64,000 nucleotides of DNA, taken from contig CAYFSS010000003.1 of NCBI GenBank assembly GCA_964345975.1, positions 25,392 through 89,391 of the forward strand. Reading direction: 5' to 3'. The notes below the pieces were generated by a model that was not told where the DNA came from, did not search any database, and was given only the letters and a program-made list of their open reading frames with translations. Each line of letters starts with the position of its first letter. Within the stretch, counting starts at the first letter, position 1. The position numbers and the translations under genes are program-made. The DNA is from an uncultured Oscillospiraceae bacterium. Its GTDB lineage: Bacteria; Bacillota; Clostridia; Saccharofermentanales; Fastidiosipilaceae. Shown here piece by piece: positions 11,390 to 46,058 of this stretch.

Positions 11390-12411
11390 CTTGGATCTAT
11401 GATCTAACACCCGCAGAAATGGAAGAATGGATCGTAGCCCAAGGCTATCCCAAGTTTCGCGCATCTCAAGTCCAGGGCTGGCTCACCAAGGGAGTGCACG
11501 TCCCGGAAGACATGCGAAATCTGCCAAAGAACCTCAAACAAGACTTAGCAGAATCTTATGATGCCGAGCATCTTCGGATTGAACAAGTACAGATTTCTGA
11601 AAGCGATGGAAGCATGAAATACCTCATCCGTTGCGGGGAGGATTATGTTGAAGCGGTCATCATGCGTTATTCGTATGGAAATACGCTTTGTCTTTCATCG
11701 CAAATAGGATGCAAGATGGGCTGCACGTTTTGTGCCTCAACCGGAGCCGGTTTCGTGCGCAATATGACAGCCGGCGAAATGCTCGCGACCTATGCCATCT
11801 TGGCTCGTGACGCAGGGATTGACTTGGAACGTGTTGTCATCATGGGGATAGGCGAACCGCTTGAGAACTTGGCAGAGGTCTTGAGTTTTGTGCGTCGTCT
11901 CAATGCTGAATATGACATCAGTAAACGACGCATCACGATCTCGACGTGCGGCCTCGTGCCTCAGATGGCTGAATTGGCAAAGACAAAGGAACCTATCACC
12001 CTTGCAATCTCTCTTCACAGTGCTATCCAGACTAAGCGCGAGGAAATCATGCCGATTGCTAAACGTTATCCTCTGGATGAACTTCTTGCTGCAAGTAAAT
12101 CGTATTTTGAACAGACAGGTCGCCGCATCAGCTATGAGTATCTGATGATCAAGGACTTCAACGATGGAGATGATGACCTCACTGCTTTAGTTAGAGCGGT
12201 AAAGAAAGCTCCCGGGCATGTAAATCTCATCCCGCTCAACGATTATCCCGGCATGACATTAAGACCCGGCTCGGAAGAGAGAATGTCTCAGTTCATGCAG
12301 GTTCTGGAGCGTGAGAATATCCCTGTCAGTCGCCGCCGATCGCTTGGTTCGGATATCGCAGCATCTTGTGGGCAACTCCGACGGCAGCATGGTGAGGTTA
12401 GCCTCAGGTGA
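11386..12411 (+). CDS. rlmN: 23S rRNA/tRNA A2503 C2-methyltransferase, radical SAM (RlmN)
   Basis: CxxxCxxC motif CKMGCTFC, plus GIGEPL and ISTCG. TTG start after GAGGAG. Confidence 0.95.
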   Translation: MTWIYDLTPAEMEEWIVAQGYPKFRASQVQGWLTKGVHVPEDMRNLPKNLKQDLAESYDAEHLRIEQVQISESDGSMKYLIRCGEDYVEAVIMRYSYGNTLCLSSQIGCKMGCTFCASTGAGFVRNMTAGEMLATYAILARDAGIDLERVVIMGIGEPLENLAEVLSFVRRLNAEYDISKRRITISTCGLVPQMAELAKTKEPITLAISLHSAIQTKREEIMPIAKRYPLDELLAASKSYFEQTGRRISYEYLMIKDFNDGDDDLTALVRAVKKAPGHVNLIPLNDYPGMTLRPGSEERMSQFMQVLERENIPVSRRRSLGSDIAASCGQLRRQHGEVSLR

Positions 12412-13172
12412 ATAAAACCTATCAGGCGGCGGGTTATAGTGAGATCGGAAACGGTCGTCGCCTGAATGAAGACAGTATCGGTCTCAGTGATATGGCTGAA
12501 GGGCGCTACGGCATCTTCCTACTTTGTGATGGCATGGGAGGTCACAAGCGAGGTGACCTCGCAAGTGAGCTAACCGTTCGCTATACACGTCGTTATATTC
12601 TGGACCGCTTGGAACCCGAACTGGATGCAAGAGAGCTTAGGGCATTGTTATATTATGCCTTGCGGGATGCAAATCGCAGGGTGTATCAGTTTGCTGAACG
12701 ATCGGATCGATTTTCCGGAATGGGTACGACGATCGTTGCCGGCATCTTGCGGTATGATGGACTGCTGGTCTATGGGCATGCCGGTGATAGCCGACTCTAT
12801 AGTCTACTTGACGGAATTCAACGCTTGACAACGGATCATAGCGTTGCGCAGGCTTTTATTGAATGTGGGCTGTTGCGGGAAGAGGATATTGCAACGTTTC
12901 CTCGCCGCAATGAGATAACCAGCTGTATAGGTATGGGTGAGGATATGGAAGCAACGCTCGGTGCACGTCAATTAAACTCGGGAGAGCGCCTTCTGTTCTG
13001 TTCCGATGGATTGCACGGTGTATGTTCAGATCCGGTTATCGCAGGAACGATGAAATTACATGATGATCCAACGGACACATGTCATGCTTTGATACGTCTA
13101 GCGCTCGATCATCAAAGCCGCGATAACATCAGTTGTATCGTTGTGGATTACTACGGATCAACTCCGGTTTGA
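12408..13172 (+). CDS. PP2C-family Ser/Thr protein phosphatase (PrpC/Stp)
   Basis: Motifs LLCDGMGGH, FCSDGL and RDNIS. It lies directly upstream of the PASTA kinase, as prpC-prkC does. GTG start. Confidence 0.9.
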   Translation: MNKTYQAAGYSEIGNGRRLNEDSIGLSDMAEGRYGIFLLCDGMGGHKRGDLASELTVRYTRRYILDRLEPELDARELRALLYYALRDANRRVYQFAERSDRFSGMGTTIVAGILRYDGLLVYGHAGDSRLYSLLDGIQRLTTDHSVAQAFIECGLLREEDIATFPRRNEITSCIGMGEDMEATLGARQLNSGERLLFCSDGLHGVCSDPVIAGTMKLHDDPTDTCHALIRLALDHQSRDNISCIVVDYYGSTPV

Positions 13173-13183
13173 AGAGTTTGATC

Positions 13184-13192
13184 TGCTATAAT
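13184..13192 (+). promoter_or_regulatory. Candidate extended -10 promoter element (TGcTATAAT) in the phosphatase-kinase gap
   Basis: TG at 13184-13185, one nt, then a perfect TATAAT at 13187-13192. I found no good -35 element. Confidence 0.4.
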
Positions 13193-13221
13193 TGAGCAAC
13201 CGCAGACAGTGACTGCTCAAT
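13191..13221. promoter_or_regulatory. Perfect 8-bp inverted repeat ATTGAGCA-N15-TGCTCAAT overlapping the -10 element
   Basis: Arms at 13191-13198 and 13214-13221 are exact reverse complements. The kinase RBS AAGGAG follows immediately. Confidence 0.4.
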
Positions 13222-13235
13222 CTTAAGGAGTAAGG

Positions 13236-15161
13236 ATGTCGATTGAAAGTGGAACGGTCCTCAGTGAGAGGTATCGTATCAGGCGCCTACTGGGTTCCGG
13301 AGGTATGGCACATGTCTACCTTGCCGAAGACATGCGCAACGGTAAGGCCGTGGCTATCAAGGTACTCAAACGTGAGCTCAATGATGACCAAGAGTTTGTG
13401 CGTCGTTTTGAAACTGAGGCACGTGCCGCGTCAAGTCTTTCCCATGAAAATATAGTTAAAGTCTTAGGTGTCGGTGAGGCACAAGGCTACCGATATATGG
13501 TGCAAGAATATGTCGACGGCATATCTTTGAAGGACATGATTCGTCACTATGGACGTCTCGATTGGCGCATCGCTGTCCCGATGTTTATTCAGATCGCCAT
13601 GGCCCTTGCGAATGCTCATGATGGCGGGATCATCCATAGAGATATCAAGCCTCACAACATCATGATCACGCGTGATCATAAGGCGATGGTGACGGACTTC
13701 GGAATTGCGCGTGCAACCACTTCCAATACGATCACGCAAACCGGAAGCAGCACGTTAGGCTCTGTCCATTATTTTTCGCCCGAACAAGCCCGGGGAGGAC
13801 AAGTGAGCGCGAAGAGTGATATCTATTCACTTGGAACTCTCATGTTTGAGACTTTGACCGGCATCTTACCCTTCGATGGTGATACCTCTGTCAGTATTGC
13901 CATCAAGCACCTCCAAGAGACGCCGCAAGAACCTATTATCTTGGAGCCAACCATCCCCCAAGGACTATCGGATATCGTCATGCGTTGTTTGAGAAAGAAC
14001 CCAAGCGAACGGTATCGTGATGCCAGGGATCTGGTGCGTGAACTCGATGCTTTCATGATTAACCCGCAAGCTGTATACGGTACAGGAAGACAGCAGGATG
14101 CTTTTGAAACCACGGACGGGACCGGTTTCATCGAGATGGATGAGCCCGGAGCTTCCTATGAGAAGATCCGCGACTTTGAACAAGTTGTCATGGATCGTCG
14201 TTCATCACGTCGCCGTGAAAGTGGCGTCGTCATTGCGCTCATCCTCTTAGCAATAGCTCTTGTCGTCGGTGGTGTCGTCTACTTCATCCAGTTAATGAAT
14301 AATGAAATGAATCCAAGCGGTGAGAACCGGATTCTTATCACGATGACGAACTTCATCGGTGACACGTATGAATCCGCTAAGGCTTTGCTCGATGAACACG
14401 ATATTCCCCATCAAGTGGAACGAGCTCCAAGTGATCAATATGCCGCAGGCATCGTCATCAATCAGAGTATTCTGGAGGGTGAGGACTTCTTCATCGACCC
14501 GCGAAGGCCCTTGGTCTTGACGGTAAGCTCAGGACCCACGCAGGAAAATCGAGCCTCCTATGAGATGCCCAATGGTGCAGGCTATGAATATGAAGAGTTG
14601 CGCAAAATACTTGCGGACCAAGGCTTGGTTGTTAAGAAAGTCGATGAAGACCAGTCAACCACTTATGGCGCAGGCCTTGTCACGCGCCATATTCCAAGAG
14701 CAGGTTCTACTGTGTACGAGGGAGACGAGGTTACGCTTTATGTTGCACCTCAGCCCAAGTCGCTCACCATTCCTCAAGTTTGGGGTGTAGCGGAGGATGA
14801 ATTTGTCGCTCAGATGGTCGACGCAGGGTTCACCATCGATGCGGTTGTTGTCCCTGCGGGGGATGTCGCACCTTACTATGGTCGCTGGGTAGAAGATACC
14901 AATGGCAACATTCTGTACGCCGGGAATATCATCGATTCCAATGTTAAAGTGAAAGTCGTTGTCGGAGATGCCAATACCCTTTGGGGTACGCAGCAACAAA
15001 ATCCAGATCCGGCACCCGCTCCGGATCCTGCGCCTGTGCCTACAACGGATCCAACGCCGGCGCCTGAAACGACTCCTGCACCTATACCTGATCCCGCCCC
15101 CAGTCCCGCGCCGGATCCTGTCCCGAATCCGGATCCTGTCGATCCTGCAGTGGAAGGTTAA
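13236..15161 (+). CDS. prkC: Ser/Thr protein kinase with extracellular PASTA repeats (PrkC/StkP type)
   Basis: Hanks motifs GGMAHVY, VAIKVLK, HRDIKPHN, DFGIA and SPEQARG. One TM helix (VVIALILLAIALVVGGVVYF) is followed by about three PASTA-like units and a Pro-rich tail. Confidence 0.93.
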   Translation: MSIESGTVLSERYRIRRLLGSGGMAHVYLAEDMRNGKAVAIKVLKRELNDDQEFVRRFETEARAASSLSHENIVKVLGVGEAQGYRYMVQEYVDGISLKDMIRHYGRLDWRIAVPMFIQIAMALANAHDGGIIHRDIKPHNIMITRDHKAMVTDFGIARATTSNTITQTGSSTLGSVHYFSPEQARGGQVSAKSDIYSLGTLMFETLTGILPFDGDTSVSIAIKHLQETPQEPIILEPTIPQGLSDIVMRCLRKNPSERYRDARDLVRELDAFMINPQAVYGTGRQQDAFETTDGTGFIEMDEPGASYEKIRDFEQVVMDRRSSRRRESGVVIALILLAIALVVGGVVYFIQLMNNEMNPSGENRILITMTNFIGDTYESAKALLDEHDIPHQVERAPSDQYAAGIVINQSILEGEDFFIDPRRPLVLTVSSGPTQENRASYEMPNGAGYEYEELRKILADQGLVVKKVDEDQSTTYGAGLVTRHIPRAGSTVYEGDEVTLYVAPQPKSLTIPQVWGVAEDEFVAQMVDAGFTIDAVVVPAGDVAPYYGRWVEDTNGNILYAGNIIDSNVKVKVVVGDANTLWGTQQQNPDPAPAPDPAPVPTTDPTPAPETTPAPIPDPAPSPAPDPVPNPDPVDPAVEG

Positions 15162-35281: not shown

Positions 35282-36166
35282 ATGCACCAAAATGAGCGCC
35301 CAAGCAACGGAATATTGTCAGGCAAGAAAGTAGCTGACGAGATCTATGCAAATTTAAAGCAGAAACTCGACAATCGTGGTGATGTGCGTGCGCCGGGACT
35401 TGCCGTAATCTTGGTGGGTGAAGATCCTGCCTCTATGACTTATACGTCGAGCAAGGCCAAGAATGCCGAGAAATTAGGGATTCATTCTCAGATTCTGCGG
35501 TTTGCGGAAGACCTCAGTGAAGCAGAACTCTTAGGCGAGATCGAAACCTTGAACCGCGATGAAACGATCGATGGGATTCTTGTCCAGTTGCCGTTGCCTC
35601 CCCATATCGATACAGCAAAGGTGCAGCGGGCGATTAAGTCTGAGAAGGATGTCGATGGGTTTCATCCCACGAATTTAGGCCTTCTCCTGCAAAATGAGCC
35701 GGGGCTTCGGCCTTGTACGCCTCAGGGCATTATGAGACTCCTCGAGTACTATGATATCCCGCTTGCAGGAGCTGAAGCCGTTGTCTTAGGTCGAAGCAAT
35801 ATCGTCGGGAAGCCTATGGCTCAGCTGCTTCTCCAAGCGGATGCCACGGTGAGCCAACTGCATTCCAAGTCACGGGATCGGGCTAAACATTTAGCGGAAG
35901 CCGATCTTGTTGTCGTCGCGATAGGTCAGCCTGAGCAGGTGAAGATCGATGAACTTCGCCCGGGATCGGTTGTCATCGACGTCGGGATTCATCGAACGTC
36001 AACAAAGAAATTGGTGGGCGATGTGGAACACGGTGTCGAGGAGAAAGTTCTCGTGACGCCGGTTCCGGGGGGTGTAGGTCCATTGACCGTCGCCCAGTTG
36101 ATGGATAATTGTGTGCGGGCCTGGGAAGTTAATACAGGTCAGAACGGAGCGTGCGATGAACGCTGA
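35282..36166 (+). CDS. folD: Bifunctional methylenetetrahydrofolate dehydrogenase/cyclohydrolase
   Basis: Motifs ILVQLPLP and TPVPGGVGPLT, with typical length. Confidence 0.95.
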   Translation: MHQNERPSNGILSGKKVADEIYANLKQKLDNRGDVRAPGLAVILVGEDPASMTYTSSKAKNAEKLGIHSQILRFAEDLSEAELLGEIETLNRDETIDGILVQLPLPPHIDTAKVQRAIKSEKDVDGFHPTNLGLLLQNEPGLRPCTPQGIMRLLEYYDIPLAGAEAVVLGRSNIVGKPMAQLLLQADATVSQLHSKSRDRAKHLAEADLVVVAIGQPEQVKIDELRPGSVVIDVGIHRTSTKKLVGDVEHGVEEKVLVTPVPGGVGPLTVAQLMDNCVRAWEVNTGQNGACDER

Positions 36167-37460
36167 TAGAGCGATCGAAAGTGTAGAGATTCTCTGCGTC
36201 GGGACAGAACTCCTGATGGGGCAGATCGTCAACACAAATGCATCAAACCTGGCGAAGAAACTGGCAGATCTAGGGCTATACAGCTATTACCAAACCGTTG
36301 TCGGTGACCATCCGGGACGTATGGCTGAGGCCATGCGCCTAGGGCTTGAACGTTCCGATGCTGTGATCATCACGGGGGGCTTGGGGCCAACCGATGATGA
36401 TATTTGTATGGAAATCGCTGCTGAGGTTGCAGGCGAGGCGTTAGTCTTCGATGAAGCTGCGTGGGAGACGATTTCGCAGTACTTCGATCGTCAAGGACGA
36501 GAAGCAACTGAGAATAATCGGAAGCAGGCTTTTAGACCCAAGAATGCAATTTCCATCCCCAATAATAACGGCACTGCACCGGGCGCCATTGTCCCGGTTG
36601 AGGTTCGGGAGAAAACGAGCTATTTGATCTTGCTTCCCGGCCCCCCGCGTGAAAATGCTCCGATGTTTGATGACTTTGTAGCACCGTTCTTAACGGCTCA
36701 TAGGCAGCATGATCTGCGAACGGTCTTTGTCCATTTTGTGGAAATCGGTGAATCCAATCTTGTTACTATTCTCAAAGATTTAATCGCCGAACAAACGAAC
36801 CCCACGATTGCTCCCTATGCATCAGAGGGGAAAGTGACGCTTCGCCTGACGCAGTCGGTTGATGACGGGAATGAAGAAGACCTCATCGCACCCGTCCTAG
36901 ATGTCATTGATGATCGTTTAGGGCGATACATCTTTGAAATTGGGGATCGTGATGTATACCAAGTCCTGCTCGATCATATGACGGAAACAGGCGATACGCT
37001 GTCGATCGTTGAAAGCTGTTCAGGGGGGCGCTTGCTTTCGTCATTCATTCAACATTCGGGAGCTTCGGAGGTGATTGAGGGTGGGCTCGTGACCTATTCC
37101 AATCGTTCGAAGAACGAGCAGTTGGGCATTTCGATGGACTTCATTGAGACGCACGGTGCGGTCAGTGAAAAGGTCGCCCGTGCGATGGCAGAGGCTTGTC
37201 GAGATTGTTTTGGCACAACCTATGCACTGTCAACGACAGGGATAGCCGGTCCTGACGGTGGCACCAACGAAAAGCCCGTAGGAACTACCTACCTTGCTCT
37301 GGCCGGTCCCCGGGGCACATCGGTTATTCATCGCGTGTTCCGAGGCAACAGAGATAAGAATCGTCGTCTAGCTGCAATCAATGCAGCGACGATGCTGTGG
37401 CGTCATTTCCAAGAAGAGGGCAAGATTACCTTCGGGAAGGAGCTACGCTTTGAAGAATAG
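36156..37460 (+). CDS. cinA: CinA-family competence/damage-inducible protein (PncC-type nicotinamide-nucleotide amidase domain)
   Basis: N-terminus ILCVGTELLMGQIVNTN and C-terminal domain SIVESCSGG...TTGIAGPDGG. The ATG at 36156 follows ACGGAG; the ORF is open from 36111. Confidence 0.9.
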   Translation: MNADRAIESVEILCVGTELLMGQIVNTNASNLAKKLADLGLYSYYQTVVGDHPGRMAEAMRLGLERSDAVIITGGLGPTDDDICMEIAAEVAGEALVFDEAAWETISQYFDRQGREATENNRKQAFRPKNAISIPNNNGTAPGAIVPVEVREKTSYLILLPGPPRENAPMFDDFVAPFLTAHRQHDLRTVFVHFVEIGESNLVTILKDLIAEQTNPTIAPYASEGKVTLRLTQSVDDGNEEDLIAPVLDVIDDRLGRYIFEIGDRDVYQVLLDHMTETGDTLSIVESCSGGRLLSSFIQHSGASEVIEGGLVTYSNRSKNEQLGISMDFIETHGAVSEKVARAMAEACRDCFGTTYALSTTGIAGPDGGTNEKPVGTTYLALAGPRGTSVIHRVFRGNRDKNRRLAAINAATMLWRHFQEEGKITFGKELRFEE

Positions 37461-37464
37461 ACCG

Positions 37465-40170
37465 GTGGAATCACGGATCAGAGGATTGCGTTTGCCCGGA
37501 GGCCCGGCCAATAGACCGGATCGAGATCAAGTCAGAGAAATGTTTGCTCGAGGCGAAGGTCTCGACCCTCGCGAACTGACAATTTATAAGGACTCTGAAT
37601 CTCTCTTGAATGATATTCAAGAGAAACGTGTCTTTATGCCAACGGATGGCGGTACAGATTTAGAAGAATCCTTGAAAGAACTAGATGCTGCGCTTGAAGA
37701 AGCTGCTCGTTCGAGAAGAGCTGATGCTCGGCCGGAAATGAACGCTTATCCGGAACCTCAGGTCATGACCGAAGAACCCCAACAGAAAACAAAGACGCCT
37801 TTGTGGAAAAGGATCATTAAATCTGACCTTGCGCCTGTTTCAGAATCTGTAGAATATCCCGATGAAACGACAAGAGACGAAGAGGATGTGTTCCTCGACG
37901 AAACGGTTCAGACGCAACATGATGCTCTGACACACGCTCAATCTCCGGAGTCTAGATCTGATGTCTCGATCGACGGAGGTGATGAAACAGAGAATTCACT
38001 GAATCAGGATGATTCAATGCCTCGGGATGCCATAAGAGTTCCGATTCGAGAAGGTGCCGGCCAGTTCGATGCTTCTCAATCATCGCTTCATGATAGCGCT
38101 CGTGTCGATGCACGTGATAGCGGTCGTGACGATGTGCGCGCTGTTGGTCGTGTCGATATACGTGATAGCGGTCGTGTCGATGTCCGCGATATTAGTCCAA
38201 TAGAGGCTCAAGATAAAGATCAGGCCAGAACACAAGACAGCGCTCGATTTACTACCCATGAGATCGCGCGGGTCTATACTGAGGATCAAAGCCAAAATCA
38301 AAAGCCAGCCATTCGACGGATTGAAGCTGAACGTAAAGAACCACCGGAACCTAGTGATCGGGCAGTGGAGGAAGGAACGGCGGTTTTCTTATCCCTTGCA
38401 GCATCGCAAAGCGACTCCATCAGTGGTACGGTAACTGCTCCTATGGCGGAGCCTGCGGTCACAATGGCTACTTCGCGTTTGCCCAAGATTACAAAGGAGC
38501 ATTTAGATGGAACAAACTCGGACGGCAACGATCACAACAAAGTGACTAATACAGGCGAAGAGGTCCATGAACGAACGGAAGAGAATGGCAACAGAGCCTC
38601 TCGTTTGGACCACCTAACAAGGTCGACGCTCATCCTCATCGTAGGACTCATCTTAAGTAAGCTTACCGGGCAGATACGCCAAGTCTTGTACCCCCATGTT
38701 TTTGTCCAGAAACATTTAACAGACGCTTACGTTCAGGGATTCCTCATTCCGGATTTTATCTATGAACTCTTAGTCGGCGGTTCAATCCAAGCTGCGATTG
38801 TCCCAACGCTTGCCTCCGCCCTGGGAACCAAAGAAGAGCGGAAGACATGGCATTCCGTATCGATCTTCATTTCCTTTGTTTCCGTCATCATGCTCCTAAC
38901 CCTAGTCATAGCGGAAGTCTTCACACCTCAACTCTTGGCACCCTTCGTTAAGATTGAGAATTTAGAGCTAACGGCAAGAATGGCCAGAGTGCTCTTCCCA
39001 CAAACCTTCTTCATGATGGGTGCTGCCTTGAGCATCGGAATTATCAATGCATATAGTAATTTCATAAAGACAAGTTTCGGACCTGCTATCTACAATTCAC
39101 TCTTTGCTGCAAGCCTCCTCATTTTGGGAACTTCAAGTGAACAAGGTTTGATTCATGTCGGCATCGGAGTGAGCCTAAGTGCTCTAGCTTACTTCTTATT
39201 CCAAATCTTTCTCGGCCGCAAAGAAATCTCACCTTATCGTTTCCGTCTGGATTTAAAGGATAGAGGCTTTAGATTGTTGCTGCTCCTGGCAGTTCCTATT
39301 TTATTTTCCTCTTCGATTGCCCATTTAAATACGATGGTCCTCCATGGCTTCACGAAATCGATGGAAGCCGGGGCTGCGACGGCGCTGAATCAGGCAAACT
39401 CGGTTTGGCTCTTGCCTTACGGTGTCTTTACCGTTGCCATCGGACAAGCCATGTTACCTACCCTTTCAACCTTGATTGGTCGCGAGAAGGACGAGGCTGC
39501 TTCGTCCTTGTTATCCGCTTCGATAAGACGGATGCTATTTTTTGCAATTCCGTCAGCCATCACATTCTTCATCCTCAGGGAAGACTTGATGCTGGGCATC
39601 TTTATATGGCGATTTGATGGCTATGATGCTCAAATTGAAGTTACCCGATTAGCGGCTAGACTCTTACAGTGGTATTGCATTTCCATCGTTGTCCAAGGGT
39701 TCATCTATCTCTATAACTATGCTTTCTATGCAATGAAAGTCACGTATTTACCCCTAATTAACGGTATTTTATCACTTGCGTTGACCTTGGCGGTTGGAAG
39801 TTACATAACTCAACCTAATGTATTGGGGGCCGAGGGTCTATCCGTTTCCTATGCCCTTTCAGGTACCATAACAGCCCTGATTCTTGGCATCCTCTTCAAG
39901 TTGCGATTTAGAAAACTTGCCCCGCGCTTCTTAACACGAGCATGGGGGATCTTCTTTGTGAAAATGATCCCAATGACCGTGGTGATGGTCGGGGCGCTAT
40001 ACTTGATGGAAACCTACTTTACCCCGGCTGCCGTGGGCGGCAAGATCCAACAAATCGTTTGGCTTGGACTACGATTCGGCGTCGCCTTTGGAATCTGGTT
40101 CATCGGTGGAAAGCTGTTGAAGCTCGACCTTAAAGTCGAGCCGCAAACACCAAAGAAGGCCGCTTTATAA
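37465..40170 (+). CDS. murJ: MurJ/MviN-like lipid II flippase (MOP superfamily) with a 360-385-aa low-complexity N-terminal extension
   Basis: The frame is continuously open from 37381. Candidate starts are GTG 37465 and ATG 37540. The polytopic core of about 515 aa begins near 38617 and carries MurJ-like segments GGSIQAAIVPTL and ALNQANSVWLLPYGVFTVAIGQAMLPTLS. Confidence 0.7.
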   Translation: MESRIRGLRLPGGPANRPDRDQVREMFARGEGLDPRELTIYKDSESLLNDIQEKRVFMPTDGGTDLEESLKELDAALEEAARSRRADARPEMNAYPEPQVMTEEPQQKTKTPLWKRIIKSDLAPVSESVEYPDETTRDEEDVFLDETVQTQHDALTHAQSPESRSDVSIDGGDETENSLNQDDSMPRDAIRVPIREGAGQFDASQSSLHDSARVDARDSGRDDVRAVGRVDIRDSGRVDVRDISPIEAQDKDQARTQDSARFTTHEIARVYTEDQSQNQKPAIRRIEAERKEPPEPSDRAVEEGTAVFLSLAASQSDSISGTVTAPMAEPAVTMATSRLPKITKEHLDGTNSDGNDHNKVTNTGEEVHERTEENGNRASRLDHLTRSTLILIVGLILSKLTGQIRQVLYPHVFVQKHLTDAYVQGFLIPDFIYELLVGGSIQAAIVPTLASALGTKEERKTWHSVSIFISFVSVIMLLTLVIAEVFTPQLLAPFVKIENLELTARMARVLFPQTFFMMGAALSIGIINAYSNFIKTSFGPAIYNSLFAASLLILGTSSEQGLIHVGIGVSLSALAYFLFQIFLGRKEISPYRFRLDLKDRGFRLLLLLAVPILFSSSIAHLNTMVLHGFTKSMEAGAATALNQANSVWLLPYGVFTVAIGQAMLPTLSTLIGREKDEAASSLLSASIRRMLFFAIPSAITFFILREDLMLGIFIWRFDGYDAQIEVTRLAARLLQWYCISIVVQGFIYLYNYAFYAMKVTYLPLINGILSLALTLAVGSYITQPNVLGAEGLSVSYALSGTITALILGILFKLRFRKLAPRFLTRAWGIFFVKMIPMTVVMVGALYLMETYFTPAAVGGKIQQIVWLGLRFGVAFGIWFIGGKLLKLDLKVEPQTPKKAAL
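38092..38187 (+). repeat. In-frame 4 x 24-nt imperfect tandem repeat (consensus GATAGCGGTCGTGTCGATGTNCGY, encoding D-S-G-R-V-D-V-R)
   Basis: The four units are DSARVDAR, DSGRDDVR, AVGRVDIR and DSGRVDVR, read directly from 38092-38115, 38116-38139, 38140-38163 and 38164-38187. Confidence 0.9.
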
Positions 40171-44534: not shown

Positions 44535-46058
44535 ATGTCGAAAAAACTGCCTGACAAGAAAAACAAAGGCAATGTAAGTGATGACGGACTACAAGCGTTG
44601 GACGTTCACCGTGTAAGTTCAGTAGATGATTCTACCGAGTCGGAGTTCTTGGAAGAAGATATGTCTGACGATGAAGCGTTCAAGCCTACGGATCGGGTTG
44701 AAATTAGAACCATTGAAGCGGACGAGGTTGCGGGAGCAAACGATGAGTCCGAATCTGAGATAGAGACTATAGATGAGCAAATCGATGAGTCCGACAACGG
44801 TCAGACCCTTGATGATGTTGAAGAACCTGATTCATTAAGCGCCGTGAATATAGAATCTGCGATTGAGTCGAGTGAGGATTCTCTCTCAGCTATGACGCAA
44901 GAAGATGAAGAATCTGAGGGGATGACCACGATCGAATCCACAGAAGTCATCTATCAGGAAGGTGATCAAGTCATCAAAGAGTCTGTGGACGTTGTCACTG
45001 TGGCATCGGTTGATGAAATACCGCAGGAAAGCGAACAAGAGGATCTGACAGCATCCGATGATATAGGGGTTGTACACGACGCCGAGTATACGGAGAACGA
45101 AGAAGCCGTCTCTGAAGAAGAGGCCTCGGACATTGAAGATGATGTAGCAGAGGATGGGGTGCAAGTTATTGCAAAGTATCCCTATGGTCTTACATCAAAA
45201 CCTCGCGTAACCGCGGGTCTTCGCAATGTTCTCTTAGTCTTATTTGTTCTTTGGATTGGGTTTGTGTTTGTAGCGCCCTTTATCTTACCCCAAGGCCTGG
45301 ATACCCCCAACTTAGACCTCCTAACAGGTGAGCATTTACTTGGCACTGACAGTGTCGGTAGAGACGTTTTGTCGACGACTTTGAAGGCGGGTAGGACTTC
45401 GCTGATTTATGCTCTAATCCCGACCCTTATCGGTTTGTTTGGAATTCTTTTGACTTATAGGAATTGGAGTGATCCATCTTCCACATATTCAAGAGCCTAC
45501 CTCATGCGCCCAATGCCATTCACGGTTATTAGCATCATCGCCTCATTTGCAATGGGCTTATTCTTGCCTCGCACATGGGTTTATTTCATCATCGTAGCTT
45601 TCTTATCACTTGTCTTGTGGTTGCGTGAGGCATTTGCTGTTGCTCATTATATAAAAGCCTATAGACAGGCTCGTCCTAATCAATTTAGTTACTATTTGGG
45701 AGCTCGAGAGTTAGATAACATTCGCTATACCTATGGGCAAGAAGTGCGTGCAGCTTTCTTAAACGGAGTTCTCAATGTCTTCTTAAGGGCTTATCTCATC
45801 ATTAGTGTTTTACCCTTTACCGATAACAGTCTATCGGTGCCACAGCGTGCGGATTGGGCCAGTCATATCATCTTGCCTCTGCGACAAGGGGTAAGCATCT
45901 TAGATCCAAATGTGCTGCCACATTTTATTGGTTGGGCGATACCATTGGTTTTGGTCATTCTTATCATTCTCCTAAATCTCAGAGTAGCTAGGCGACAGAA
46001 GGTTCTATCGACCATGCGAATGCGAGCTAATCACTGGCGCGCCGGAGATGAGGTCTAA
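44535..46058 (+). CDS. Divergent OppC/DppC-like ABC permease-fold membrane protein with a roughly 215-aa polyacidic N-terminal extension; function unknown
   Basis: Strong RBS GGAGGTG. Residues 1-215 are rich in D, E and S. TM1 is LLVLFVLWIGFVFVAPFIL, followed by the OppC hallmark HLLGTDSVGRDVLSTTLKAGRTSL. Compare OppC in this window, HPFGTDDIGRDMFSLVWAGARTSL. Five or so further hydrophobic segments and a degenerate EAA-type loop follow. Confidence 0.75.
   Translation: MSKKLPDKKNKGNVSDDGLQALDVHRVSSVDDSTESEFLEEDMSDDEAFKPTDRVEIRTIEADEVAGANDESESEIETIDEQIDESDNGQTLDDVEEPDSLSAVNIESAIESSEDSLSAMTQEDEESEGMTTIESTEVIYQEGDQVIKESVDVVTVASVDEIPQESEQEDLTASDDIGVVHDAEYTENEEAVSEEEASDIEDDVAEDGVQVIAKYPYGLTSKPRVTAGLRNVLLVLFVLWIGFVFVAPFILPQGLDTPNLDLLTGEHLLGTDSVGRDVLSTTLKAGRTSLIYALIPTLIGLFGILLTYRNWSDPSSTYSRAYLMRPMPFTVISIIASFAMGLFLPRTWVYFIIVAFLSLVLWLREAFAVAHYIKAYRQARPNQFSYYLGARELDNIRYTYGQEVRAAFLNGVLNVFLRAYLIISVLPFTDNSLSVPQRADWASHIILPLRQGVSILDPNVLPHFIGWAIPLVLVILIILLNLRVARRQKVLSTMRMRANHWRAGDEV

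What the first reader, a model, noticed from the sequence alone, without database searches (positions are those of the whole stretch)
37465..38616. The MurJ-like flippase carries a 360-385-aa low-complexity cytoplasmic N-terminal extension
The frame is open without a stop from 37381 to 40170. The MurJ-like polytopic core only begins near 38617. The preceding region is acidic and rich in S, T, R and Q. It has no TM segment and contains an internal octapeptide repeat. Staying open for more than 400 codons at this base composition is very unlikely by chance, so the region is most likely translated as one protein. In Actinobacteria MviN/MurJ is regulated through an appended domain and Ser/Thr phosphorylation. 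Here a PASTA kinase and PP2C pair is encoded in the same window, so the S/T-rich extension could be a comparable regulatory handle arranged differently.
Basis: partly seen in the sequence, partly recalled or inferred. Interest (0 to 1): 0.6.

Follow-up and report, generated by a model that had tools for sequence, protein, structure and literature searches.

The report
MurJ flippase with disordered N-terminal arm
The only cell-wall precursor flippase (MurJ) of this uncultured Clostridia bacterium really is made with an extra 385-390-residue, mostly disordered, acidic arm on its cytoplasmic N-terminus; the arm has no relatives outside one small clade and contains a 43-residue peptide conserved better than the flippase itself, so it probably docks a partner or regulates the flippase, but what it does is unknown.

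Summary
Observation confirmed; interpretation partly supported.

**The gene.** The frame 37381-40170 is open. The real start is most likely TTG 37450, behind the Shine-Dalgarno GGAAGGAG and overlapping the cinA stop. That gives 906 aa: about 384 aa of extension plus a 14-helix MurJ core.

**Translation.** Three orthologues from independent assemblies carry the same extension with the same start and synteny. Substitutions fall on third codon positions, so the arm is translated.

**Architecture.** It is a mosaic, not uniform low complexity:
- a helical N-module
- a PLWKRIIK motif
- a fast-evolving acidic spacer with a 24-nt x 4.2 repeat
- block C
- block D, 43 aa, 91% invariant against 86% for the core, with 12 invariant Ser/Thr
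- a linker of constant length but variable sequence

AlphaFold2 gives pLDDT below 50 for residues 94-371.

**Distribution.** No homologue turned up in Pfam, PDB sequences or 1.84 billion representative proteins. A sister clade has an unrelated 180-294-aa extension where cinA is missing. That suggests independent gains.

**Kinase idea.** Untested. The PP2C/PASTA pair lies 22 kb away in the gene order I recall for the B. subtilis prpC-prkC operon.

The scan's earlier first-reader notes report disordered N-terminal MurJ extensions in other genomes too. I rate this a new variant of a known kind, of moderate interest.

The parts
37435..37442 (+). Shine-Dalgarno sequence GGAAGGAG, 7 nt upstream of the murJ start and inside the 3' end of cinA
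   Evidence: Sequence read. The equivalent GGAAGGAG or GGAGAGGAG stands before the start in all four orthologues.
37450..40170 (+). Full murJ CDS (906 aa plus stop), starting at TTG 37450. It overlaps the cinA stop (TAG 37458-37460) by 11 nt.
   Evidence: Orthologue gene calls start at the same codon. L014 has an in-frame stop 7 codons upstream.
37450..37734 (+). N-module (residues 1-95). It contains the conserved stretch RGLRLPGxP..DRD.VRE.FARGEGLDPR.LTI.KD.ESL and three predicted helices (25-33, 49-58, 69-92).
   Evidence: In residues 4-67, 39 of 64 residues are invariant and 30 of those differ synonymously. AF2 pLDDT reaches 87 in helix 69-92, but there is no confident globular fold: pTM is 0.22 when the module is folded alone.
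37792..37833 (+). Block B (residues 115-128): short motif K.PLWKRI.K.D.A
   Evidence: 10 of 14 residues are invariant and 9 of those differ synonymously. There is a short helix at 119-122.
37834..38235 (+). Variable acidic spacer (residues 129-262). Length and sequence differ between orthologues.
   Evidence: dN is 0.74-0.80, against 0.07 in the core. Only 8 of 68 alignable codons are invariant. pLDDT is about 30.
38091..38191 (+). In-frame tandem repeat, 24 nt x 4.2 copies (octapeptide DSGRVDVR-like)
   Evidence: TRF result. The 96%-identical orthologue P0001 is 8 residues shorter, with the gap in this region. P0002 has a QDTGxIRA-type array in the same place.
38245..38334 (+). Block C (residues 266-295): RF.T.EIAR.YT.D....Q.P.IRRI.A.R, with a short helix at 270-277
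   Evidence: 18 of 30 residues are invariant and 15 of those differ synonymously. Helix.
38365..38493 (+). Block D (residues 306-348): VEEGTAVFLSLAASQSDSISGTVTAPMAEPAVTMATSRLPKIT. It is the most conserved segment of the whole protein and holds 12 invariant Ser/Thr.
   Evidence: 39 of 43 residues are invariant (91%, against 86% for the MurJ core). 34 of those codons differ synonymously. Variable sites by codon position are 3, 1 and 38.
38494..38601 (+). Linker between block D and TM1 (residues 349-384): variable in sequence, nearly constant in length
   Evidence: 4 of 35 aligned residues are invariant. By my count on the alignment, the stretch from the end of block D to the invariant LT.ST motif is 43-44 residues in all orthologues.
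38602..40167 (+). MurJ (MOP superfamily) 14-helix flippase core
   Evidence: Pfam PF03023 scores 175 bits against a cut-off of 27.4. AF2 pLDDT is above 90. Foldseek best matches are solved MurJ structures: 7waw at TM 0.91 (target-normalised), plus 6cc4, 6nc6 and 5t77.
36111..37460 (+). cinA, the upstream gene whose 3' end holds the murJ ribosome-binding site and start
   Evidence: Pfam CinA, MoCF_biosynth and CinA_KH. The order ftsK-folD-cinA-murJ-recA-recX-miaB is kept in the orthologue contigs.
12408..15161 (+). PP2C phosphatase (12408-13172) and PASTA Ser/Thr kinase (13236-15161). These are context only and are not shown to act on MurJ.
   Evidence: Pfam PP2C_2, Pkinase and PASTA. Flanking genes are rsmB, rlmN and rsgA.

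Best explanation
**What it is.** This is the genome's single MurJ lipid II flippase. It is translated from TTG 37450 as one 906-residue protein. The first ~384 residues form a lineage-specific cytoplasmic arm that is largely intrinsically disordered.

**How the arm is built.**
- a conserved helical N-module (residues 1-95)
- a short PLWKRIIK motif
- a fast-evolving acidic spacer containing octapeptide repeats
- two conserved membrane-proximal blocks, C and D
- a linker of fixed length but free sequence leading into TM1

**Shown here.** The arm is translated, it is under block-wise purifying selection, it is predicted to be disordered, it has no known domain, and its phyletic range is narrow.

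**Inferred.** The arm works as a tethered docking or regulatory arm. Its conserved short motifs, above all block D held about 36 residues from the membrane, would bind a partner at the cytoplasmic face of the membrane or the flippase itself. This would couple or gate lipid II export. The spacer would serve mainly as a flexible, negatively charged tether.
For: **Open frame.** Chance of staying open is 1.5e-9.

**Orthologues.** Three orthologues from independent assemblies share the start, frame and synteny.

**Selection.**
- dN values: block A 0.35-0.40, blocks C-D 0.19-0.20, spacer 0.74-0.80, core 0.07-0.08, with dS saturated.
- Block D is 91% invariant and its changes are almost all at third codon positions.
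- Between strains the length differs by 8 residues (906 vs 898 aa), the size of one repeat unit, so the frame is kept.

**Structure.** AF2 gives the core pLDDT above 90 and residues 94-371 below 50, with isolated helices only. There is no TM segment and the net charge is -29. The core matches solved MurJ structures.

**Copy number.** Only one strong MurJ is found in the 92%-complete genome: 177.6 bits. A second MOP-type frame scores 38 bits.

**Topology.** The MurJ N-terminus is cytoplasmic by established topology (own knowledge of E. coli and T. africanus MurJ).
Against: - No function was tested, and no partner, phosphorylation or in-cis contact was observed.
- AF2 does not dock any block onto the core, although the alignment over the arm is only four sequences deep.
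- For the closest pair, dN/dS over the extension is 0.47 against 0.055 for the core, so much of the arm is weakly constrained.
- The genome has many other long disordered tails on membrane proteins. Part of the arm may therefore reflect a lineage-wide tendency rather than a MurJ-specific function.
Confidence: 0.6

Rival explanations
1. Phospho-handle. The arm, mainly the Ser/Thr-dense block D or the D-S/T-G repeats, is phosphorylated by the PASTA kinase and dephosphorylated by the PP2C. The phospho-Thr is then read by the FHA domain fused to the SEDS (FtsW/RodA) polymerase, linking flippase to polymerase. This would be a functional analogue of mycobacterial PknB-MviN-FhaA.
For: - Block D has 12 invariant Ser/Thr in 43 residues.
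- The repeats carry a D-S/T-G core in the window sequence, P0001 and P0002.
- The genome encodes a PASTA kinase and a PP2C.
- Its only FHA domain sits in a 777-aa TM-FHA-SEDS fusion.
[quoted passage not shown] 2012).
- Phosphorylated disordered regions are used in PrkC signalling and in FtsZ (abstracts of bioRxiv 10.1101/2025.11.01.686061 and PMC12747378, listed).
Against: - Nothing here shows phosphorylation.
- The kinase and phosphatase lie in the gene order I recall for the B. subtilis housekeeping operon, 22 kb away.
- FHA-SEDS-sized frames occur in nearly all 30 relatives, whether or not their MurJ is extended.
- By my reading of the sequence, the FHA domain has Ala where the canonical phosphate-binding Ser stands (VAKRHC against the usual vSrrHa).
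- Ser/Thr richness also fits beta-strand or hydrogen-bonded peptide binding.
Confidence: 0.2
2. In-cis gate. Block D is a tethered peptide that binds the cytoplasmic face or the inward-open cavity of its own MurJ core and gates lipid II entry. The rest of the arm modulates that binding.
For: - Block D is more conserved than the core.
- It is joined to TM1 by a linker whose sequence is free but whose length is constant at 43-44 residues (my count), as expected for a tether of fixed reach.
Against: - AF2 does not place block D on the core. pLDDT there is about 30.
- No covariation test is possible with four sequences.
- A fixed tether length fits a membrane-proximal partner in trans equally well.
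Confidence: 0.15
3. Largely neutral accretion. The lineage tolerates and accumulates disordered tails on membrane proteins. The MurJ arm is one of many and has no MurJ-specific role. The conserved blocks reflect a generic need such as folding, insertion or stability.
For: - 49 of 1209 ORFs of 200 aa or more have a low-hydrophobicity stretch of 120 aa or more. By my reading of their sequences these include tails on LCP-, carboxypeptidase-, CPBP-, OppC-like and FHA-SEDS proteins.
- A sister clade gained an unrelated MurJ extension.
- The spacer evolves almost freely.
- Frames for the FHA-SEDS protein are also longest in three of the genomes with long MurJ frames.
Against: - Block D is 91% invariant with third-position-only change, and blocks A-C are conserved at 60-71%. 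This is not what neutral sequence looks like at saturated dS.
Confidence: 0.15
4. The upstream region is not translated, or only a short isoform starting near TM1 is made. The long open frame would then be an accident or an assembly artefact.
For: - In-frame ATG codons exist at 38443 and 38467.
- There are no expression data.
Against: - The chance of an open frame this long is 1.5e-9.
- The same continuous ORF appears in this genome assembly and in contigs from three other sequencing runs.
- Substitutions show codon-position periodicity right from the 5' end.
- The first internal Met is Ile or Val in two orthologues. No GGAG stands before the second in L014 or L015.
Confidence: 0.03

Closest known systems
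Canonical MurJ lipid II flippase (solved structures matched: 7waw, 7wax, 7wag, 6cc4, 6nc6-9, 5t77)
   Same: - The core (residues 385-906) matches Pfam PF03023.
- It has 14 predicted helices.
- It superposes on solved MurJ structures, with target-normalised TM-scores up to 0.91.
- It is the only strong MurJ in the genome.
   Different: - Canonical MurJ is about 470-540 aa and starts a few residues before TM1.
- In 72 other sampled Clostridia genomes the open frames are 518-671 aa.
- Here about 384 extra cytoplasmic residues precede TM1.
Mycobacterial MviN (Rv3910), a MurJ with an appended pseudokinase domain that is phosphorylated by PknB and bound by FhaA (PMC11898655, citing Gee et al. 2012)
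   Same: - A MurJ core carrying an extra cytoplasmic region.
- That region could regulate flipping through Ser/Thr phosphorylation and an FHA reader.
   Different: - The appendage there is C-terminal and is a folded pseudokinase followed by an extracellular domain (own knowledge).
- Here it is N-terminal, disordered, has no kinase-like domain and shows no sequence similarity.
- No stand-alone FHA protein was found. The only FHA domain is fused to a SEDS protein.
- It may work in a similar way, but it is not a member of that family.
Extended MurJ of sister genera in the same family (P0009 819 aa, P0010 720, P0011 725, P0012 703; genomes G011, G005, G018)
   Same: - Their MurJ cores are the next closest after the window's own clade, at 46-49% identity.
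- They fall in the same fully supported 13-member clade.
- They also carry 180-294-aa hydrophilic N-terminal extensions with no Pfam hit beyond MurJ and MatE.
   Different: - The extensions are not homologous to this one: hhalign probability is 0.1 and the profile search found nothing.
- Their composition differs (R/S-rich or N/K-rich).
- They have their own YYLDF-type motif.
- They occupy the folD-murJ interval where cinA is missing.
Disordered cytoplasmic tails of other Gram-positive cell-wall proteins that serve as docking or phospho-regulated sites (PBP tails bound by GpsB, own knowledge; PrkC juxtamembrane region, bioRxiv 10.1101/2025.11.01.686061; FtsZ C-terminal tail, PMC12747378)
   Same: - Short conserved motifs set in disordered, fast-evolving cytoplasmic segments of envelope-synthesis proteins.
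   Different: - Those tails are mostly tens of residues long and sit on other proteins.
- My two literature searches found no such arm described for MurJ.
- No GpsB-type SRxxR(R/K) motif is evident at this N-terminus (my reading of the sequence).

Membership tests
MurJ / MOP-superfamily lipid II flippase | Match to the family profile above the curated threshold | tested here: met
   PF03023 scores 175.2 bits against a cut-off of 27.4, E = 2.4e-51, covering profile positions 5-439 of 451.
MurJ / MOP-superfamily lipid II flippase | 14-helix MurJ fold | tested here: met
   The AF2 core has pLDDT above 90 and 14 long helices. The 15 best Foldseek matches are all MurJ structures, E from 9e-16 to 5e-10, with TM up to 0.91. 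MATE and Wzx proteins come after them.
MurJ / MOP-superfamily lipid II flippase | Conserved basic residues on TM1 lining the central cavity (E. coli R18 and R24, own knowledge) | tested here: inconclusive
   S403 and R410 are invariant and K404 nearly invariant among 58 homologues. By eye, the motif SK.TGQ.R corresponds to E. coli SRVLGFAR. No structural superposition of these residues was made.
MurJ / MOP-superfamily lipid II flippase | Lipid II flipping activity or essentiality | not testable with these tools
   The only indirect support is that it is the single strong MurJ in a 92%-complete genome.
MviN-type MurJ regulated through a pseudokinase domain and FhaA (Actinobacteria) | Kinase-like (pseudokinase) domain fused to MurJ | tested here: not met
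   There is no Pkinase match or any other Pfam match outside the MurJ core, even at E up to 10. The protein ends 17 residues after the last predicted helix.
MviN-type MurJ regulated through a pseudokinase domain and FhaA (Actinobacteria) | Stand-alone FhaA-like FHA partner | tested here: not met
   The genome has one FHA match, and it lies inside a TM-FHA-SEDS fusion protein.
MviN-type MurJ regulated through a pseudokinase domain and FhaA (Actinobacteria) | Phosphorylation of the appended region by a PASTA kinase | not testable with these tools
   A kinase and a phosphatase are present. No phosphorylation data are available.
Intrinsically disordered region with short linear motifs | No stable predicted fold, a biased hydrophilic composition, fast and indel-rich evolution, and islands of conservation | tested here: met
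   - pLDDT is below 50 for residues 94-371, and pTM is 0.22 for residues 1-135 folded alone.
- D+E is 21% and the maximum hydropathy is 0.84.
- Spacer dN is 0.74-0.80 with length changes.
- Blocks A-D are 60-91% invariant.

The most novel reading that the evidence does not exclude
Block D, a 43-residue Ser/Thr-dense peptide conserved better than the flippase core, sits on a tether of fixed length. It could be a switch that physically couples or gates lipid II export. One version: it plugs MurJ's own cytoplasmic entrance. The other: once phosphorylated by the PASTA kinase, it is captured by the FHA domain fused to the SEDS polymerase. The second version would amount to a direct, signal-controlled link between flippase and polymerase. 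A sister clade has gained an unrelated arm independently, which would point to recurrent selection for such tethered control of MurJ.
Probability: 0.12. Interest if true: 0.75.

Novelty: new variant of a known kind. Interest (0 to 1): 0.42.

Why it matters
How MurJ activity is timed and placed relative to the peptidoglycan polymerases is poorly understood outside mycobacteria. There, an appended domain and an FHA protein do this job.

This protein offers a compact test case. It is a natural MurJ carrying a cytoplasmic arm, and within that arm one 43-residue peptide is under stronger constraint than the transporter itself. Finding what that peptide binds would name a direct regulator or partner of a lipid II flippase in Firmicutes-type bacteria.

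The finding also shows that long 'orphan' disordered extensions on essential membrane enzymes can be real and selected. They are not necessarily annotation artefacts, and they can arise more than once in related lineages.

The limits are plain. The organism is uncultured, the clade is tiny, and no function has been shown.

Tried and rejected
**Searches for relatives of the extension**
1. Homologues of the extension were sought in five ways, and only the clade itself turned up:
   - a word-indexed search of 5.8 billion proteins
   - a profile search of 1.84 billion representatives, which gave only weak matches to the repeat
   - PDB sequences
   - Pfam at E up to 10
   - a genome-contig scan, which gave one weak match (31% over 115 residues, E = 3e-6) in a Nitrospiraceae genome that I did not pursue
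2. Paralogues of blocks A-D were sought in the organism's own genome with HMMs. There are none. The single hit, KTPLWKKII (E = 0.002), lies in what looks to me like a loop of a polytopic membrane transporter, and I take it as coincidence.
3. Homology between the two extension types was tested with hhalign. None was found.
4. CinA remnants were sought inside the sister-clade extension. None were found.

**Structure**
5. AF2 on the full-length protein and on residues 1-135 alone gave no confident fold for the arm. I therefore ran no fold search on it, because a low-confidence model gives meaningless matches.

**Expression signals**
6. Promoter and terminator scans showed nothing above the shuffled expectation. 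No terminator lies between cinA and murJ.

**Literature**
8. Two searches found no description of an N-terminal MurJ arm.

**Rejected readings**
- ATG 37381 as the start: L014 has a stop in that stretch.
- Kinase co-location in the window as evidence for regulation: the pair lies in what I recall as the standard operon order, 22 kb away.
Full report
**1. The observation**

- The ORF 37381..40170 (+) is open for 929 codons. Pfam finds MurJ (PF03023, 175 bits) only from residue 441 onward, and nothing else except a weak MatE match inside the same core.
- From the region's base composition, the chance that the 384 codons before the core stay open is 1.5e-9. The other five frames hold 9-34 stops.
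- The extension has no hydrophobic segment: the highest 19-residue hydropathy is 0.84, against TM peaks of up to 2.8 in the core.
- It is acidic: D+E 21%, R 9.9%, net charge -29.
- A 24-nt repeat with 4.2 copies lies at 38091-38191.

The description therefore holds. 'Low complexity' is only partly apt. The 32-residue entropy is 3.1-3.9 bits, about the same as the core mean of 3.49.

**2. The start and the evidence for translation**

A search of 5.8 billion proteins restricted to the extension found three proteins. P0001 is 90% identical over the extension, P0002 is 45% and P0003 is 44%. All three are 858-929 aa and all carry MurJ.

Their contigs come from three different sequencing runs. They keep the order ftsK-folD-cinA-murJ-recA-recX-miaB.

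All three gene calls begin at the codon equivalent to TTG 37450 (MKNR...).
- That codon is preceded at 7 nt by GGAAGGAG or GGAGAGGAG.
- The start overlaps the end of cinA.
- In L014 an in-frame stop lies 7 codons upstream. This excludes the ATG at 37381 as the conserved start.

Nei-Gojobori estimates with saturated dS give the following dN values:

| Segment | dN |
|---|---|
| N-terminal block | 0.35-0.40 |
| Blocks C-D | 0.19-0.20 |
| Spacer | 0.74-0.80 |
| MurJ core | 0.07-0.08 |

In block D (residues 306-348), 39 of 43 residues are invariant and 34 of those codons differ synonymously. Variable sites by codon position are 3, 1 and 38. The core is 86% invariant, so block D is the best-conserved part of the protein.

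The 96%-identical orthologue P0001 is 8 residues shorter, with the gap in the repeat region, so the frame is kept.

The whole extension is therefore translated. The internal Met at 38443 lies inside block D, the most strongly conserved peptide, and is Ile or Val in two orthologues.

**3. Anatomy of the arm**

- **Residues 1-95, N-module.** Many residues are invariant (RGLRLPGxP, FARGEGLDPR, PTDG). Predicted helices lie at 25-33, 49-58 and 69-92.
- **Residues 115-128.** The motif PLWKRIIK.
- **Residues 129-262, spacer.** It is acidic, variable in length and carries the octapeptide repeats.
- **Residues 266-295, block C.** EIARVYT...PAIRRIEA.
- **Residues 306-348, block D.** VEEGTAVFLSLAASQSDSISGTVTAPMAEPAVTMATSRLPKIT, with 12 invariant Ser/Thr.
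- **Residues 349-384, linker.** The sequence is free. The distance from block D to the invariant LT.ST motif is 43-44 residues in all orthologues.

AlphaFold2 was run on a 58-sequence alignment. It gives the core pLDDT above 90 and residues 94-371 below 50. Residues 1-135 folded alone give pTM 0.22. The arm is thus a disordered region with conserved islands, though only four sequences inform that part of the model.

The core superposes on solved MurJ structures: 7waw at TM 0.91, plus 6cc4, 6nc6 and 5t77. The MurJ N-terminus is cytoplasmic (established topology, own knowledge). The arm has no export signal, so it should lie in the cytoplasm.

**4. Distribution and origin**

No homologue of the arm exists in any of these:
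- 1.84 billion representative proteins, apart from its own cluster; only weak matches to the repeat appeared
- PDB sequences
- Pfam
- the organism's own genome

Frame lengths elsewhere:
- In 72 other sampled Clostridia genomes, MurJ frames are 518-671 aa.
- Within the family, most are about 540-560 aa. Exceptions are G011, G018, G005 and G004, with frames of 689-826 aa.
- The corresponding proteins P0009-P0012 have 180-294-aa N-terminal extensions.

A maximum-likelihood tree of the cores puts all eight extended proteins, plus five unextended ones, into one fully supported 13-member clade. It needs two changes of state.

The two extension types are not homologous: hhalign probability is 0.1. 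In the three sister-clade loci I examined, cinA is missing and the extension fills the folD-murJ interval. No CinA remnant was detected. Here cinA is intact. Independent gains are the simpler reading, although one gain followed by loss and divergence is not excluded.

**5. Context bearing on function**

- The genome holds one strong MurJ and one weak MOP-type frame.
They lie in the order rsmB-rlmN-PP2C-kinase-rsgA, which I recall as the B. subtilis yloM-yloN-prpC-prkC-cpgA arrangement. They are 22 kb from murJ, so their presence is not specific evidence.
- The only FHA domain in the genome belongs to a 777-aa TM-FHA-SEDS (FtsW/RodA-type) fusion. Frames of about that size with an FHA match occur in nearly all relatives.
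- Long hydrophilic tails are common in this genome. 49 of 1209 ORFs of 200 aa or more have a stretch of 120 aa or more, and several of these are envelope membrane proteins.

**6. Reading**

Shown:
- a real, translated, clade-specific cytoplasmic arm on the sole MurJ
- a mosaic of strong and weak constraint along the arm

Inferred:
- The conserved motifs, above all block D on a tether of constant length, bind something at the cytoplasmic membrane face.
- That something could be a partner protein or the flippase itself, and the binding would regulate or localise lipid II export.

The phospho-handle idea remains a plausible sub-hypothesis. It rests on the Ser/Thr density, the kinase, the FHA-SEDS fusion and the MviN-FhaA precedent (PMC11898655). 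It is wholly untested. My reading of the FHA sequence suggests that the usual phosphate-binding Ser is replaced by Ala.

A purely neutral origin fits the spacer but not block D.

**7. Comparison and novelty**

- The core is a member of the MurJ family.
- The arm is not a member of the MviN-pseudokinase type, because it has no kinase-like domain, no stand-alone FhaA and sits at the other end of the protein. It could still work in a similar way.
- Two literature searches found no description of an N-terminal arm on MurJ.
- Earlier first-reader notes of this scan report disordered N-terminal MurJ extensions in at least four other genomes. I did not check them, but the general phenomenon is probably recurrent.
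- I class this as a new variant of a known kind, of moderate interest.

**8. Limits**

- Only four sequences of the arm exist.

Noticed in passing
G000:C14:18737-21070 (L017 769-3102): The genome's only FHA domain lies in a 777-aa protein. Its parts are an N-terminal TM helix, a disordered stretch with PSGQTD x3, an FHA domain and a SEDS (FtsW/RodA-type) polymerase. FHA-bearing frames of about 600 aa occur in nearly all 30 relatives. They are longest in three genomes that also have long MurJ frames: G000 798, G018 756 and G011 727.
   Followed up: partly
G000 genome-wide, e.g. C13:28422-30398, C2:34355-35896, C5:61917-64187, C20:16876-18414; window 44535-46058: Many envelope membrane proteins in this genome carry long hydrophilic N-terminal tails of 150-450 aa. 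By my reading of their sequences they include LCP-like, DD-carboxypeptidase-like, CPBP-like, OppC-like proteins and an unknown 5-TM protein. In all, 49 of 1209 ORFs of 200 aa or more have a low-hydrophobicity stretch of 120 aa or more.
   Followed up: partly
window 38302-38322 (PAIRRIE); G000:C5:61917-64187 residues 101 and 191: The motif P-x-I-R-R-[IV] is invariant in MurJ block C. It also occurs twice in the disordered tail of the CPBP-like protein. Those are 3 of only 5 matches among all genome ORFs of 80 aa or more. It may be a shared short linear motif, or a post-hoc coincidence.
   Followed up: partly
P0009, P0010 and P0012 N-termini; G000:C5 residue 39; G000:C20 residue 44: An aromatic-aromatic-x-acidic-F/L-acidic motif (YYLDFD, YYLDLE, FFDDFE, FFHDFD) recurs near the N-termini of the sister-clade MurJ extensions. 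It also appears in two other tailed membrane proteins of this genome. It is absent from the window's own MurJ arm.
   Followed up: no
L002 (G011), L003 (G018), L004 (G005): In the sister genera with the other type of MurJ extension, cinA is missing from the otherwise conserved folD-cinA-murJ-recA locus. The extension occupies that interval. tblastn finds no CinA remnant.
   Followed up: yes
window 37450-37460: The murJ start (TTG) overlaps the last codons and the stop of cinA by 11 nt, and its Shine-Dalgarno sequence lies inside cinA. The overlap is kept in all four orthologues, which suggests translational coupling of cinA and murJ.
   Followed up: partly
G000:C33:5489-6151 (L019): A second, weak MOP/MurJ-like frame (651-aa open frame, 38 bits to PF03023). 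It is probably a different polysaccharide or spore-type flippase. I did not examine it.
   Followed up: no
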